This document shows, piece after piece, positions 10,069 through 12,819 of a DNA stretch of 34,819 bases (positions are counted from its first letter, which is position 1; each line of letters begins with the position of its first letter). Origin of the DNA: a virus (taxonomy: Duplodnaviria > Heunggongvirae > Uroviricota > Caudoviricetes). The notes under the pieces are model-generated. The model was given only the letters and a program-made list of their open reading frames with translations, made no database searches and was not told the DNA's origin. The DNA is taken from IMG/VR virus record IMGVR_UViG_2693429713_000015. One strand, written 5' to 3'. The translations under genes were made by a program, and so were the position numbers.

Positions 10069-10425
10069 ATGAGCAAAGATATAGGAGAGCGCGTTATTTC
10101 TGTGAGGAAGAAAGCAGGGTTGAACCAGAGAGAATTTGCAGCTCGTTTAGGTATTTCTAATGGTGGTATCAGTCAGATTGAAAATGGAAAGGCGATGCCT
10201 GGAGGGGAGTTTCTGTTAAAGATGCATCAAGAGTTTAATGTTGATGTAAATTGGTTGCTCACTGGAATGAGCACAGATGGTATGACTAGAAACCAGAATC
10301 AAATTTCCCCAGAAAAACAAAAACTAATAGATACTTTTGACGACATGACACCAGACCAACAACGCTCATTTCTTGAGATTGGGCGATTCTATACTCAGCC
10401 AAAACCAGGAAAAATCGCAGGCTGA
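10069..10425 (+). CDS. XRE-family HTH repressor (c-repressor analogue)
   Basis: 118 aa; N-terminal HTH (LNQREFAARLGISNGGISQIENGK); divergent from the early operon; no peptidase domain. Confidence 0.8.
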   Translation: MSKDIGERVISVRKKAGLNQREFAARLGISNGGISQIENGKAMPGGEFLLKMHQEFNVDVNWLLTGMSTDGMTRNQNQISPEKQKLIDTFDDMTPDQQRSFLEIGRFYTQPKPGKIAG

Positions 10426-10510: not shown

Positions 10511-10543
10511 ACCGGAAAGCATTGTGCTTTCCGGTTTTGTTTC
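10511..10543 (+). terminator. Intrinsic terminator downstream of the repressor gene
   Basis: 10-bp stem accggaaagc / gctttccggt, loop attgt, followed by TTTGTTTC. Confidence 0.6.
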
Positions 10544-11306
10544 AGAAGTTGCAGATTAGCAGTTCACGGCGCGGCGTGGGTTTACCCGCCAGACTGTAGT
10601 TGATATTCACTGTCTGTATGTTCAGTCCAGTGAACACCTCGCGCATCTGCGGGATGTCGTTCACCGAAATTATCATTTTTCCTCTGATGCACCGGGCCAG
10701 CTCTGCCAGCCGCGAGTAGTTCCCTTCAGGAAAATCCACACCATAGCCTTCCGTACCCAGGTACGGTGGGTCGCAGTAGAACAGCGTGTGCGGACGATCA
10801 TAACGCTCAATGCACTGTTGCCAGTCCATGTGTTCTATGACTGTTCTGGAAAGCCGCAGGTGTGCCGCTGACAGTTCTTCTTCAATACGTAGCAGGTTGA
10901 AGCGTGGCGGGGATGTGGTGGAGGTACCGAAGCTGTGCTCTGCCACCTTGCCGCCAAACGCCTGCTTCTGAAGGTAGTAGAACCGTGCCGCACGCTGGAT
11001 ATCCGTCAGTGTTTCTTCCGGGGTGATCTGCAGCCATTTGTAGATCTGACGGCTGACCAGCGCCCATTTGAACTGGCGGACAAATTCTTCCAGGTGATGC
11101 TTTACCACCCGGTACAGATTCACCAGTTCACCGTTGATATCATTGATGACTTCGATCTTGCCGGGTGTCTTAAGAAAATAGAGCGCTGCTGCCCCACAAA
11201 ACGGCTCCACATAACATTCATGCGCCGGAAACAGCGGCAGAATGTGTTTTGCAAGGCGGCGTTTGCCACCAATCCACGGCACGATGGGTAATGTCTGCAT
11301 TTTCAT
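10542..11306 (-). CDS. Dam-family (D12 class) N6-adenine DNA methyltransferase
   Basis: DPPY catalytic motif; N-terminal VPWIGGKRRL AdoMet-binding-like motif; likely start is ATG at 11306 (MKMQTLP...) rather than the ORF-track start at 11396. Confidence 0.8.
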   Translation of the reverse strand: MKMQTLPIVPWIGGKRRLAKHILPLFPAHECYVEPFCGAAALYFLKTPGKIEVINDINGELVNLYRVVKHHLEEFVRQFKWALVSRQIYKWLQITPEETLTDIQRAARFYYLQKQAFGGKVAEHSFGTSTTSPPRFNLLRIEEELSAAHLRLSRTVIEHMDWQQCIERYDRPHTLFYCDPPYLGTEGYGVDFPEGNYSRLAELARCIRGKMIISVNDIPQMREVFTGLNIQTVNINYSLAGKPTPRRELLICNF

Positions 11307-11410
11307 AATCTGCAAGCCTTTTACAATTATTAAAAAATATGGCAGTCTGGTCAGGTCTCGCGAGACTGACTGAACCTTGGTCGGCTCACAGCGCATTCCT
11401 GTGGGGCGAT

Positions 11411-11450
11411 GACCAGCCCGGCTTTCGGGTGCCGGGCTGGTCGTTCTTTC
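11411..11450 (+). terminator. Plus-strand terminator-like hairpin with no obvious plus-strand gene upstream
   Basis: Perfect 12-bp stem gaccagcccggc / gccgggctggtc, 8-nt loop, followed by GTTCTTTC; the minus-strand flank is not U-rich. Confidence 0.4.
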
Positions 11451-11496
11451 ATGATGCGGCAGGGATGGCGGGATTTCTGTTAATGTGGTTTAGGGA

Positions 11497-11712
11497 TTAT
11501 CCGGGGCGATTTTCTGACCTTATCCGGTCCAGGGCATAAGTAATACCTTCTGCAAAAACAGAAGTATCAAACTGCTTTTGTATTCCCTGAAAATGAAAAG
11601 CGGCACGACAGACACTCAGTTCTCCGCGGTATAACCGGATAATATCTTCCAGAACATTGTTCACTGCTTCAGCACGGCGCTGATGTTCTGTTAACGTTAA
11701 TCGGGGATTCAT
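11497..11712 (-). CDS. Hypothetical protein (71 aa)
   Basis: AAGGAG RBS 6 nt upstream of ATG at 11712; predicted helical, no recognised motif. Confidence 0.45.
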   Translation of the reverse strand: MNPRLTLTEHQRRAEAVNNVLEDIIRLYRGELSVCRAAFHFQGIQKQFDTSVFAEGITYALDRIRSENRPG

Positions 11713-11713
11713 G

Positions 11714-12115
11714 ATGCACTCCTTAAATGATGATTTTTATGTACTCACCGGCAAAATATTCTGCCGATTACTGAACACGCATCCGGCACCTCAGGTTTTG
11801 ATTTATTCTGGTTTTTTCGATATCCCGGACCAGGTTGATCACGACCAGAAAAAGTGCCGGTGTTTTATTGATACGCTGATATGGCTTCGGGATAACAGCT
11901 ATATTCGTTACTCTCAGTTGCTGGCTGTGGGAGCGGCTGATGTCGTCCTCACGGAAAAAACGCTCTGTCTGCTCAATGCCATGCCGACCTTTCTGCAGCC
12001 CCGGCCCGTACCATTTAAAGAGTCACTTCTGGATGCAGTAAAAACCGGTGAAAATGCAGTCATCGCTGAATGCGTATCCCGGATTATGCGTTACGTGTTT
12101 AATGAACGTAAGTGA
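11714..12115 (+). CDS. Hypothetical protein (about 133 aa), uncertain
   Basis: 405-nt ORF filling the gap between two minus-strand genes; weak GGGGA RBS; start is back-to-back with the 71-aa gene start and its 3' end overlaps the P-loop gene by 25 nt. Confidence 0.35.
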   Translation: MHSLNDDFYVLTGKIFCRLLNTHPAPQVLIYSGFFDIPDQVDHDQKKCRCFIDTLIWLRDNSYIRYSQLLAVGAADVVLTEKTLCLLNAMPTFLQPRPVPFKESLLDAVKTGENAVIAECVSRIMRYVFNERK

Positions 12116-12819
12116 GGTTTATCCGCTGTCTGCATAATCCCGATAGCCAGTGCGAGGGGAAGTAATTCCGGGGAAACTCTTTCAAACAGCGATGCCCATT
12201 CTCCTCTCGCCATCACTCTGTCCAGCCCGCCCTCCAGTTGCATTTCAGCAATCTTCCTGATTTCCCGGAACAACGCCGCTTTGATCTCTTCATGCTCAGC
12301 TTTATTTTCCGGTGTCAGAAGGTATTCGTCGAAGAACCGGGGAGGCTGGTTAATCGGGATGTGTTCCTGTTTGCCGTACTTCGGGGACGAACAACATTCT
12401 GTTGACTGACCAGTGAGTTTACGTAACTCCTTCATGAGCAGCTCCTGATCGTAAACTGTCATCAGTGCCGCAATGGTGGCATGCAGTGCATCGGGCAGTA
12501 TCCAGGGTTGCCGGCCCGTGGGGCATATAACATCCAGCAGCTCATTCGTCCGACAGATACGCTCCTCGCCGTATGACAACAGGCCCTGTCCCGTGTATTC
12601 CTCCAGCCTGATCACTGTGCCAGCCCGTGGTTTCTGCCATGTGCTCAGATCATCCCCACTCATACGGCGCTCACCGTCCACGTCTGCGGCGTCGACAATG
12701 ACGCTGTTTCCGAATTCCTGTTTCACCACTTCCTCTATTCGCGCCAGTACGTAACTTTTACCGCTGCCCACAGGACCGGACACGGTGACAGTGATGACCG
12801 GATTCAGTGTCTGCGTCAT
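12091..12819 (-). CDS. P-loop NTPase of unknown function (242 aa)
   Basis: Walker A GPVGSGKS at residues 15-22; possible Walker B VIVDAADVDG; GAGGAG RBS 8 nt upstream of ATG at 12819; C-terminal about 150 aa unrecognised. Confidence 0.6.
   Translation of the reverse strand: MTQTLNPVITVTVSGPVGSGKSYVLARIEEVVKQEFGNSVIVDAADVDGERRMSGDDLSTWQKPRAGTVIRLEEYTGQGLLSYGEERICRTNELLDVICPTGRQPWILPDALHATIAALMTVYDQELLMKELRKLTGQSTECCSSPKYGKQEHIPINQPPRFFDEYLLTPENKAEHEEIKAALFREIRKIAEMQLEGGLDRVMARGEWASLFERVSPELLPLALAIGIMQTADKPHLRSLNT

What the first reader, a model, noticed from the sequence alone, without database searches (positions are those of the whole stretch)
11497..12115. Back-to-back, start-overlapping small genes, one lying antisense inside a minus-strand transcription unit
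The 71-aa minus-strand gene starts at 11712 with AAGGAG, and the plus-strand ORF starts at 11714 with GGGGA. Their start regions therefore occupy the same DNA, and the plus ORF's 3' end overlaps the P-loop gene's 3' end by 25 nt. Either the plus ORF is not a gene, or the locus carries genuinely antisense-overlapping genes, an arrangement typical of toxin-antitoxin or RNA-regulated pairs.
Basis: seen in the sequence. Interest (0 to 1): 0.45.

Follow-up and report, generated by a model that had tools for sequence, protein, structure and literature searches.

The report
Head-to-head overlapping phage gene pair
Two small genes of a Mu-like E. coli prophage really do start back-to-back on the same few bases, and because the same odd layout recurs in unrelated phages (often beside anti-phage defence genes) it is probably a selected either/or expression module, though what the two proteins do is still unknown.

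Summary
A 71-aa minus-strand gene (11497-11712) and a 133/134-aa plus-strand gene (11714 or 11711 to 12115) meet at CATGATG. Each gene's ribosome-binding site lies in the other's first codons. The plus gene's 3' end overlaps the convergent P-loop gene by 25 nt.

Both ORFs are real genes. The plus ORF belongs to a large uncharacterised family (PHROG 2266; 195 cluster representatives) with a confident winged-helix model. Both frames are under purifying selection.

The start-to-start overlap recurs in three further settings: Serratia BcepMu-like prophages, about 45 P2-like phage loci (always CATG, in the gpA-gpQ defence hotspot beside retron, Fic and GmrSD-like cargo), and one unrelated viral contig. 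The small partners there show no detectable relationship to one another.

Natural deletion and nonsense variants lose the plus gene but keep the 71-aa gene. No toxin or antitoxin family matches, and the genes are divergent. A toxin-antitoxin reading is therefore not supported.

The most likely reading is an excludon-like arrangement. The winged-helix gene lies antisense inside a longer minus-strand unit, so the two genes are expressed reciprocally. This is inferred, not shown, and the proteins' function is unknown. Moderate interest; new variant of a known kind.

The parts
11497..11712 (-). 71-aa gene (PHROG 4490), predicted three-helix protein. RefSeq WP_001069611.
   Evidence: ORF. PHROG 4490 at E 7e-53. 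RefSeq and GenBank CDS. dN/dS 0.32-0.41 against L072/L073. Homologue of about 25-29% identity in Serratia at the same position. AF2 model of three helices, pLDDT 72.
11711..12115 (+). 133/134-aa winged-helix protein gene (PHROG 2266). RefSeq WP_000972294. Probable start at 11714; an in-frame ATG at 11711 forms the CATG.
11710..11716 (.). CATGATG junction. CAT is the minus-gene start codon; the two ATGs are candidate plus-gene starts.
   Evidence: Sequence. Identical heptamer in Serratia. CATG in all 45 P2-like loci and in L077.
11719..11724 (-). Shine-Dalgarno AAGGAG of the 71-aa gene, inside codons 3-5 of the plus gene.
   Evidence: Sequence. Equivalent GGAGG (Serratia), GAGG (P2-like) and GGAGA (L077) at the same place.
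11703..11707 (+). Shine-Dalgarno-like GGGGA of the plus gene, inside codons 2-4 of the 71-aa gene.
   Evidence: Sequence. GGGA conserved in Serratia and P2-like loci, GGAG in L077.
11749..11766 (.). 18-bp near-palindrome CGGCAAAATATTCTGCCG in codons 13-18 of the plus gene. Candidate operator or upstream element for the 71-aa gene (speculative).
   Evidence: Inverted repeat. Core GGCAAAATATTCTG is identical in Serratia although synonymous sites are otherwise saturated. The natural deletion ends exactly at its edge. There is no equivalent in P2-like loci.
12091..12115 (.). 25-nt tail-to-tail overlap of the plus gene with the P-loop gene.
   Evidence: A 37-nt equivalent overlap occurs in Serratia with an 89-aa gene homologous to the P-loop protein's C-terminal domain.
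12091..12819 (-). 242-aa P-loop protein gene (PHROG 3787), presumed first gene of the minus-strand unit. Its C-terminal domain (residues about 177-228) recurs next to the winged-helix gene in other lineages.
10542..11306 (-). Orphan Dam-type DNA adenine methylase gene, presumed last gene of the minus-strand unit.
   Evidence: Pfam MethyltransfD12 at E 9e-29. RefSeq start equivalent to 11306. Same synteny in Serratia and in L072/L073.
11409..11444 (+). 12-bp GC-rich hairpin followed by a T-rich tract on the plus strand, between the 71-aa gene and dam. It would stop plus-strand transcription arriving from the left, so the plus gene needs its own promoter within 11451-11700.
   Evidence: Sequence. 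An equivalent plus-strand terminator-like hairpin at the same position in Serratia (L003 5737-5770).

Best explanation
Both ORFs are genuine protein-coding genes of a BcepMu-like transposable prophage. They lie in the variable cargo slot between the immunity repressor and the lysis genes.

The plus gene encodes a winged-helix protein of about 133 aa from a widespread but uncharacterised phage and mobile-element family. The minus gene encodes a 71-aa helical protein.

The two genes are arranged head-to-head on a CATG(ATG) motif, and each gene's ribosome-binding site lies within the other's first five codons. Any canonical (Shine-Dalgarno-led) mRNA for one gene must therefore contain the complement of the other's translation-initiation region. 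The promoters must also face each other from inside, or beyond, the partner gene.

In addition, the winged-helix gene sits antisense inside a longer minus-strand unit (P-loop gene, then 71-aa gene, then dam).

The most likely consequence, which is inferred, is reciprocal excludon-like expression. When the long minus-strand unit is transcribed, it serves as mRNA for the 71-aa protein and as antisense RNA and transcriptional roadblock for the winged-helix gene. When it is silent, the winged-helix gene is expressed from its own promoter, and its transcript in turn covers the start of the small gene.

The winged-helix protein may add feedback by binding DNA at the junction; this is speculative. 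The biochemical role of the proteins is unknown. Their placement among accessory and defence-related genes suggests an accessory function (defence, counter-defence or regulation) rather than a core phage function.

My rough confidence in each step is 0.95 that both are real genes, 0.85 that the architecture is selected, and about 0.45 for reciprocal antisense control.
For: **Real genes**
-.

**Architecture conserved across deep divergence and different backbones**
- Serratia BcepMu-like prophages: 53% identity, the same CATGATG, and a 37-nt 3' overlap.
- 45 P2-like loci, with 35 unique large and 33 unique small genes, all with CATG.
- L077: 146-aa homologue and an 83-aa partner on CATG.

**Partners show no detectable relationship**
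- PHROG 4490, PHROG 2454, and a homologue of the C-terminal domain of PHROG 3787. hhalign probabilities are 0.1-1.3%.

**Mutual embedding of Shine-Dalgarno motifs in all lineages**
-.

**Antisense embedding in a longer unit**
- No minus-strand terminator is predicted between 12091 and 11713.
- The natural deletion variant joins the P-loop gene and the 71-aa gene with a 53-nt spacer.
- In P2-like phages the first minus-strand intrinsic terminators lie just after the small gene.
- A conserved plus-strand terminator-like hairpin upstream insulates the plus gene.

**Accessory context**
- The slot holds different genes in BcepMu itself.
- In P2-like phages the pair lies in the gpA-gpQ hotspot (PMC9122126) directly beside retron type VI, Fic, HEC-06/GmrSD-like and MBL-fold cargo.

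**Concept**
- The excludon concept, in which overlapping transcription of neighbouring genes gives mutually exclusive expression, is described in PMC12288877 and PMC3377988.
Against: - No transcript, transcription start site or protein data were available.
- Consensus sigma-70 scans find no convincing promoter for either gene near the junction.
- RNA folds of the 5' regions are no more stable than shuffled controls.
- A stem that could sequester the Shine-Dalgarno motif in P2-like loci keeps its pairing but shows no compensatory changes.
- Synonymous-site constraint at the 5' ends is only suggestive (p about 0.06-0.07).
- More distant family members sit in ordinary co-directional gene arrays without any head-to-head partner. 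The architecture is therefore not a property of the whole family.
- The winged-helix proteins are neutral to acidic by my count from the sequences. This is not what one expects of a classical DNA-binding repressor.
Confidence: 0.45

Rival explanations
1. A compressed 'divergent regulator and target' pair. The winged-helix protein is a MarR/PadR-like transcription factor that binds an operator at the junction and represses the small gene and/or itself. The overlap merely reflects loss of the intergenic spacer, and control is by protein rather than by antisense RNA.
For: - Winged-helix fold with MarR and PadR as top structural matches.
- Regulators of these families are typically divergent from their targets (general knowledge).
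- An 18-bp near-palindrome is conserved between E. coli and Serratia 38-55 nt into the plus gene.
- In several P2-like loci defence cargo follows the winged-helix gene on the same strand at 41-163 nt, as if it led an operon.
Against: - No Pfam or NCBIfam regulator family matches any of 68 members.
- The palindrome is absent from P2-like and L077 junctions.
- The proteins are neutral to acidic, and the putative recognition helix is dominated by conserved hydrophobic residues (alignment).
- Winged helices also mediate protein-protein contacts; kleisin, cullin and Nse1 are among the matches.
Confidence: 0.25
2. A toxin-antitoxin or abortive-infection pair, type II-like or RNA-controlled. One product is toxic and the other neutralises it.
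For: - Two small adjacent genes in accessory or defence-rich regions of temperate phages.
- One product has a possible DNA-binding fold like many antitoxins.
- Antisense overlap occurs in type I and type III systems (general knowledge).
Against: - The genes are divergent, not bicistronic.
- There is no match to any toxin, antitoxin or PADLOC model and no Rfam family.
- The 71-aa protein has no hydrophobic segment (sequence).
- Prophages with the winged-helix gene deleted (L064, L065; about 7 of 499 E. coli genomes fall below 80% coverage) or carrying a nonsense codon (L019) keep an intact small gene. The large protein is therefore not an indispensable antitoxin.
- Many family members have no partner at all, so the large protein is unlikely to be a toxin needing a cognate antidote.
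Confidence: 0.08
3. The overlap has no regulatory meaning. It is a by-product of genome compaction, inherited by descent. Each gene is expressed from distant promoters, and the small partners are one fast-evolving family.
For: - Phage genomes are compact.
- No promoters or RNA structures could be demonstrated.
- The small proteins are all helical and of similar size, and hhalign aligns the same segment of two types, although at 1.3% probability.
Against: - Divergent overlaps are strongly under-represented in prokaryotes (PMC2174442).
- Other divergent junctions in this prophage keep 93-130 nt spacers.
- The CATG and both embedded Shine-Dalgarno motifs persist while the large protein falls to about 25-30% identity and the flanking genome changes completely.
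- In one lineage the head-to-head partner is homologous to what is the tail-to-tail neighbour in another. That requires rearrangement, not simple descent.
Confidence: 0.17
4. The plus-strand ORF is not a gene; it is a chance open frame antisense to an untranslated spacer.
For: - GenBank record PQ738613 does not annotate it.
- Long antisense ORFs are common in this window.
Against: PHROG family, 195 distant homologues of matching length, a confident fold, frame-specific purifying selection and RefSeq annotation.
Confidence: 0.02

Closest known systems
Excludons (Listeria and other bacteria): neighbouring divergent genes whose transcripts overlap, giving mutually exclusive expression (PMC3377988, PMC12288877)
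   Same: The genes are divergent, and a long transcript can be antisense to one gene while serving as mRNA for the next. Overlap of the translation-initiation regions is built into the sequence.
   Different: In described excludons the overlap lies in untranslated regions of genes that keep an intergenic spacer. Here the coding sequences themselves meet at the start codons, and each ribosome-binding site is inside the partner's ORF. No transcript data exist for this locus.
Face-to-face promoter switches of P2/186-type phages (C/Cox, CI/Apl) and IS10 RNA-IN/RNA-OUT (recalled from general knowledge)
   Same: Promoters that fire towards each other give 5'-overlapping transcripts. The result is transcriptional interference and/or antisense pairing over a ribosome-binding site, producing either/or expression of two divergent functions.
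   Different: Those systems keep a non-coding control region with mapped operators. One product is a well-defined repressor, or one RNA is non-coding. Here both RNAs code, there is no spacer, and no operators or promoters are mapped.
MarR/PadR-type winged-helix regulators divergent from their target genes
   Same: The winged-helix fold gives the best structural matches. Orientation is divergent relative to a small neighbouring gene.
   Different: There is no sequence-family membership, and the two C-terminal helices are unmatched. The proteins are neutral to acidic, there is no intergenic operator region, and the candidate palindrome is present in only one lineage.
Type II toxin-antitoxin modules
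   Same: Two small adjacent genes on mobile elements, one with a possible DNA-binding fold.
   Different: Opposite strands, no recognisable toxin, natural loss of either candidate 'antitoxin' is tolerated, and many orphan family members exist.
Accessory cargo of the P2 gpA-gpQ defence hotspot (old, tin and others; PMC9122126)
   Same: The P2-like orthologues of the pair lie in exactly this locus, beside validated or candidate defence systems.
   Different: The pair stays at the cos/gpQ-proximal edge while the neighbouring cargo changes. It matches no known or candidate defence model, and no anti-phage phenotype is known for it.

Membership tests
PHROG 2266 (phage protein family, unknown function) | Full-length match to the family profile | tested here: met
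   E 2.6e-44, residues 2-133 on profile positions 1-142 of 144. The Serratia and Midge orthologues also match.
PHROG 4490 (phage protein family, unknown function) | Full-length match to the family profile | tested here: met
   E 7.2e-53, residues 1-71 of 71. The Serratia 73-aa protein matches at E 1.6e-7.
Type II toxin-antitoxin | Two genes co-transcribed as a bicistronic operon on one strand | tested here: not met
   The genes are on opposite strands and diverge from a shared CATG.
Type II toxin-antitoxin | Recognisable toxin or antitoxin domain | tested here: not met
   No hit in Pfam, NCBIfam or PADLOC for either protein. The only similarity is a generic winged-helix fold.
Type II toxin-antitoxin | Loss of the antitoxin is not tolerated while the toxin is intact | tested here: not met
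   Tested only for the large protein as antitoxin. Deletion (L064, L065) and nonsense (L019) variants of the large gene retain an intact small gene. The converse cannot be excluded from sequence alone.
Type I toxin-antitoxin | Small hydrophobic membrane toxin controlled by a non-coding antisense RNA | tested here: not met
   The 71-aa protein is charged, has no hydrophobic segment, and is modelled as three amphipathic helices. The antisense partner is a protein-coding gene. No Rfam match.
Excludon | Neighbouring divergent genes whose transcripts must overlap | tested here: met
   Both Shine-Dalgarno motifs lie inside the partner's coding sequence, so Shine-Dalgarno-led mRNAs overlap by at least about 25 nt. 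Leaderless starts were considered and no suitably placed -10 element was seen in the sequence.
Excludon | A long transcript that is antisense to one gene and is mRNA for the gene beyond it | not testable with these tools
   Indirect support only: no predicted terminator between the P-loop gene and the 71-aa gene, the deletion variant, and the terminator after the small gene in P2-like loci.
Excludon | Mutually exclusive expression of the two genes | not testable with these tools
   Needs strand-specific RNA-seq or reporters.
MarR/PadR-type winged-helix transcription regulators | Winged helix-turn-helix fold | tested here: met
MarR/PadR-type winged-helix transcription regulators | Match to the sequence family models | tested here: not met
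   0 of 68 family members match any MarR, PadR or other HTH Pfam model at E<=0.01. No NCBIfam hit. PDB sequence search gives only marginal hits at E>0.2 (AspA, YjcQ).
MarR/PadR-type winged-helix transcription regulators | Palindromic operator in the control region of the divergent target | tested here: inconclusive
   The 18-bp near-palindrome at 11749-11766 is conserved in Serratia, but nothing comparable is seen in the P2-like or L077 junctions.
Known or candidate anti-phage defence systems (PADLOC-DB v2) | Match to a system component model | tested here: not met
   No hit for the 71-aa or 134-aa proteins. Only weak P-loop-level hits (E>0.002) for the 242-aa protein.
T7 gp5.5/gp5.7 (lead taken from the phage Midge annotation note) | Profile similarity to gp5.5 or gp5.7 | tested here: not met
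   hhalign probability 0.06% and 0.9%.

The most novel reading that the evidence does not exclude
The winged-helix gene, its start-overlapping small partner and possibly the linked 'QLTG..DWV.AR..W' domain protein form a previously unrecognised phage accessory module. It would be a self-contained antisense toggle that makes one protein in the lysogen and its antagonist during lytic growth. For example, a prophage-encoded exclusion or defence factor would be switched off by its own phage's early or late transcription. The module would have been assembled independently with different partners in Mu-like, P2-like and lambda-like backbones.
Probability: 0.15. Interest if true: 0.7.

Novelty: new variant of a known kind. 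Interest (0 to 1): 0.5.

Why it matters
Start-to-start overlapping divergent genes are the rarest kind of gene overlap in prokaryotes, because both genes' control signals must be written inside the partner's coding sequence. Here that layout is retained over deep divergence, with small partners that show no detectable relationship, in at least three phage backbones. It occurs in about 9% of complete E. coli genomes (499 of 5,426, apparently including ST131-type strains).

If the reciprocal-expression model holds, this would be a compact natural either/or switch built from two coding genes. It would also be a marker for an uncharacterised component at the edge of the P2 defence hotspot, a locus now mined intensively for new immune systems.

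The analysis also gives a fold and a family-wide alignment to a winged-helix family that has no Pfam model.

Tried and rejected
- **Pfam, NCBIfam and PADLOC.** Scans of the 71-aa and 134-aa proteins gave nothing usable. 0 of 68 family members hit a relevant Pfam model. The UniRef label 'DUF2513' on the Serratia homologue was not reproduced.\n- **T7 gp5.5/5.7.** The similarity suggested by the Midge annotation was rejected by hhalign.\n- **Structure searches.** The BFVD search found nothing significant. The afdb50 library was unavailable. PDB sequence searches found no relatives.\n- **Rfam.** No family in the window or the locus.\n- **RNA structure.** Single-sequence folds of both 5' regions were no better than shuffles. 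The consensus fold of 26 P2-like sequences keeps a Shine-Dalgarno-sequestering stem, but with no compensatory changes and only -4.4 kcal/mol.\n- **Promoter scans.** No consensus sigma-70 site near the junction in the window, Serratia or Midge.\n- **Synonymous-site constraint.** Lower at the 5' ends of both P2-like genes, but not significantly.\n- **Homology between small-partner types.** Not detected.\n- **Conserved partner next to distant family members.** None found.\n- **Wider locus searches.** The family alignments were too divergent for the search for related loci. The genome-contig scan returned only 3 loci.
Full report
**Where the window comes from.** The 1.6 kb around the finding is 100% identical to chromosomal prophages in many E. 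coli genomes and to Escherichia phage PhiKM, which is classified in Bcepmuvirus. The surroundings fit a BcepMu-like transposable phage:
- a DDE transposase and an ExeA-like transposition protein;
- an HTH repressor (10069-10425, plus strand);
- then holin, SLT endolysin, terminase and a Mu-type portal.

The finding lies between the repressor and the holin. In BcepMu itself that slot holds three unrelated plus-strand genes (gp18-20), so it is a variable cargo slot. Here it holds dam (minus), the 71-aa gene (minus), the 134-aa ORF (plus) and a 242-aa P-loop gene (minus). The 901-nt query around the locus matches 499 of 5,426 complete E. coli genomes, 492 of them over at least 80% of the query.

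**The observation.** The coordinates are right.
- CAT at 11710-11712 is the start of the 71-aa gene. Its AAGGAG is the complement of 11719-11724, so it lies inside codons 3-5 of the plus ORF.
- The plus ORF has ATGs at 11711 and 11714. Its GGGGA (11703-11707) lies inside codons 2-4 of the 71-aa gene.
- The plus ORF ends at 12115, 25 nt inside the 3' end of the P-loop gene.
- RefSeq annotates all three genes. The GenBank phage record omits the plus ORF.

**Are they genes?** Yes, both.

The plus ORF:
- It matches PHROG 2266 end to end.
- An exhaustive profile search finds 195 cluster representatives at E<=1e-3. Nearly all are 125-150 aa and aligned over their full length.
- None of 68 members matches a relevant Pfam model.

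The 71-aa gene:
- It matches PHROG 4490.
- It is modelled as three helices with moderate confidence (pLDDT 72).

Selection:
- Window versus an 82%-identical relative (L072): dN/dS is 0.55 for the large gene and 0.32 for the small gene. Against Serratia the large gene gives about 0.2, with saturated dS.
- Orthologous P2-like pairs (35 and 33 unique sequences): pN/pS is 0.16 for the large gene and 0.32 for the small gene in the annotated frames.
- Four of the other five frames give ratios above 1 and contain stop codons. The antisense frame that shares third positions scores low but is full of stops.

**The architecture recurs.**
- *Serratia BcepMu-like prophages.* Synteny is the same: dam, a 73-aa gene (minus), a 139-aa gene (plus), an 89-aa gene (minus), then holin. 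The large protein is 53% identical. The CATGATG junction is identical, and there is a 37-nt tail-to-tail overlap.
- *P2-like phages.* tblastn against phage genomes finds about 31%-identical homologues in Midge, ST147-VIM1phi7.1 and FSL SP-004. In each, a 63-64-aa minus gene and a 143-aa plus gene are annotated with a 2-nt start overlap. A viral-contig scan adds about 45 such loci, every one with CATG.
- *L077.* A still more distant 146-aa member sits on a viral contig next to a portal gene. It is again head-to-head on CATG, with an 83-aa minus ORF.
- In all four groups a GGAG-like motif for the small gene lies in codons 3-5 of the large gene. A GGGA or GGAG motif for the large gene lies in codons 2-4 (window, Serratia, P2-like) or 4-5 (L077) of the small gene.
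- The small partners fall into three types with no detectable relationship to one another. They are PHROG 4490, PHROG 2454, and for L077 a homologue of the Serratia 89-aa protein (36% identity, E 1e-8). That Serratia protein is itself homologous to residues 177-228 of the window's P-loop protein (46% identity, E 2e-11).
- The winged-helix gene is thus linked to that C-terminal domain in three lineages, once head-to-head and twice tail-to-tail.
- More distant family members sit in co-directional arrays or defence-island-like contexts with no overlapping partner. The layout is therefore lineage-specific, not family-wide.
- For scale, divergent overlaps are the rarest class: 331 against 12,737 co-directional and 1,890 convergent overlaps in 58 genomes (PMC2174442). 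The other divergent junctions in this prophage are 93 and 130 nt wide.

**Context in P2-like phages.**
- The pair lies between gpA/DinI and cos/gpQ. That is the defence hotspot defined by Rousset et al. (PMC9122126).
- The small gene is always on the cos/gpQ side. The sequence after the large gene varies widely.
- By PADLOC that sequence encodes a type VI retron (RT plus HTH), a Fic protein (PDC-S04/SoFic), a GmrSD-like HEC-06/Orf5 protein or an MBL-fold candidate. In Midge-type phages there is nothing before DinI.
- The pair itself matches no defence model.

**Transcription-unit evidence (indirect).**
- No minus-strand terminator is predicted between the P-loop gene and the 71-aa gene.
- Two IMG/VR prophages (L064, L065) carry a deletion of about 320 nt, from about 11766 to about 12087, at a TGC microhomology. 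One of the few E. coli genomes with reduced coverage, H95 (61% of the query, in two pieces), has a pattern consistent with it.
- The deletion removes the interior of the plus gene. It keeps the 54 nt upstream of the 71-aa gene and leaves the P-loop gene intact 53 nt away. That is what one expects if P-loop, 71-aa and dam form one minus-strand unit in which the plus gene is an antisense insert.
- L019 carries a nonsense codon in the plus gene with the small gene intact.
- In P2-like loci the early-operon genes (gpA, DinI) point through the large gene towards the small gene. The first minus-strand intrinsic terminators lie just after the small gene.
- A GC-rich hairpin with a plus-strand T-tract lies between dam and the small gene in both E. 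coli (11409-11444) and Serratia. It would block plus-strand read-in, so the plus gene should have its own promoter within, or just 3' of, the small gene.

**Mechanism.**
- *Shown:* two real genes; mutual embedding of start codons and ribosome-binding sites; conservation of that arrangement; dispensability of the large gene; accessory context.
- *Inferred:* each Shine-Dalgarno-led mRNA contains the complement of the other's initiation region, and the plus gene lies antisense in a longer unit. The two should therefore interfere with each other through promoter or transcriptional interference, duplex formation and RNase III cleavage, and ribosome-binding-site occlusion. The result would be either/or expression, as described for excludons (PMC12288877, PMC3377988).
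- *Speculative:* the winged-helix protein binds the near-palindrome at 11749-11766. Its core is identical in Serratia despite saturated synonymous divergence, and the natural deletion stops at its edge.
- *Tests that did not add support:* promoter consensus scans, RNA folding z-scores, covariation of a Shine-Dalgarno-sequestering stem and synonymous-site constraint (p about 0.06).

**Rivals.**
- A protein-level 'divergent regulator and target' model is compatible with the fold. It lacks family membership, a general operator and a basic protein surface.
- A toxin-antitoxin model fails on orientation, domain content, the tolerated loss of the large gene and the many partner-less family members.
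- A 'no meaning, just compaction' model is hard to square with three undetectably related partners on the same CATG, or with one domain found as head-to-head partner in one lineage and tail-to-tail neighbour in another.
- The 'not a gene' branch is refuted.

**Verdict.**
- Its interpretation is half right: the genes are genuine and overlap antisense, but this is not a toxin-antitoxin pair.
- The thing itself is a conserved head-to-head gene pair, a winged-helix protein plus a small helical protein. It is found in accessory and defence-rich regions of temperate phages and is probably wired for reciprocal expression.
- Both genes are already annotated as hypothetical proteins and grouped in PHROGs. 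I did not find the conserved architecture, its recurrence with different partners or its position at the P2 hotspot edge described anywhere.
- I rate it a new variant of a known kind (excludon-like overlapping divergent genes), with interest 0.5.

Noticed in passing
window 11300-11450: A sigma-70-like site (TTTTCA-16-TACAAT, 11300-11327, plus strand) is followed about 80 nt later by a perfect 12-bp GC-rich hairpin (11409-11444) and a T-rich tract. Together they could specify a plus-strand RNA of about 100 nt, antisense to the 5' untranslated region of dam. A similar hairpin lies at the same place in Serratia (L003 5737-5770). No Rfam match.
   Followed up: partly
window 12091-12819; L003 6384-6653; L077 2754-3002: The C-terminal ~50 residues of the 242-aa P-loop protein (motif QL.G..D.V.AR..W) form a separable domain. 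It occurs as a stand-alone 89-aa protein in Serratia, convergent with the winged-helix gene. It also occurs as the 83-aa head-to-head partner of the winged-helix gene in L077. This suggests a functional link between that domain and the winged-helix family.
   Followed up: partly
L064 and L065 3940-4110 (equivalent to window ~11766-12087): A natural deletion of about 320 nt at a TGC microhomology removes the interior of the winged-helix gene in some related prophages. The P-loop and small genes remain intact and 53 nt apart. L019 carries a nonsense codon (Q41*) in the same gene.
   Followed up: yes
window 11497-12115 versus L073 652-1270: Between the window and L073 the large gene has no synonymous differences, while the adjacent small gene has 12 nucleotide differences (dS 0.11). 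This indicates a recombination boundary at or near the start-codon junction.
   Followed up: no
window 10542-11396: The longest dam ORF (284 aa, start 11396) is 30 codons longer than the RefSeq call (254 aa, start equivalent to 11306, MKMQTLP...). The GenBank phage record uses the long form. The short form begins close to the conserved methyltransferase N-terminus.
   Followed up: no
window 10511-10535: An 11-bp perfect stem-loop with a T-tract lies between the convergent repressor gene (ends 10425) and dam (ends 10542). It is a likely terminator separating the two units.
   Followed up: no
L008 531-574 and the equivalent in 26 P2-like loci (alignment A14): In the minus-strand RNA a stem of about 8-10 bp (CAAAGAUUUC with GAGGUUUUUG) could sequester the small gene's Shine-Dalgarno motif. 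Pairing is kept in nearly all sequences through G-U and A-U changes. There are no compensatory double changes and the predicted energy is weak.
   Followed up: partly
L009 4556-5792; L010 1068-2108; L057, L066, L048 downstream of the pair: The cargo directly beside the P2-like pair includes a type VI retron (RT plus HTH), a Fic-domain protein, a 572-aa GmrSD-like HEC-06/Orf5 protein and a 363-aa MBL-fold PDC-M48B candidate. Several of these follow the winged-helix gene on the same strand, 41-163 nt after its stop, as if they were co-transcribed with it.
   Followed up: partly
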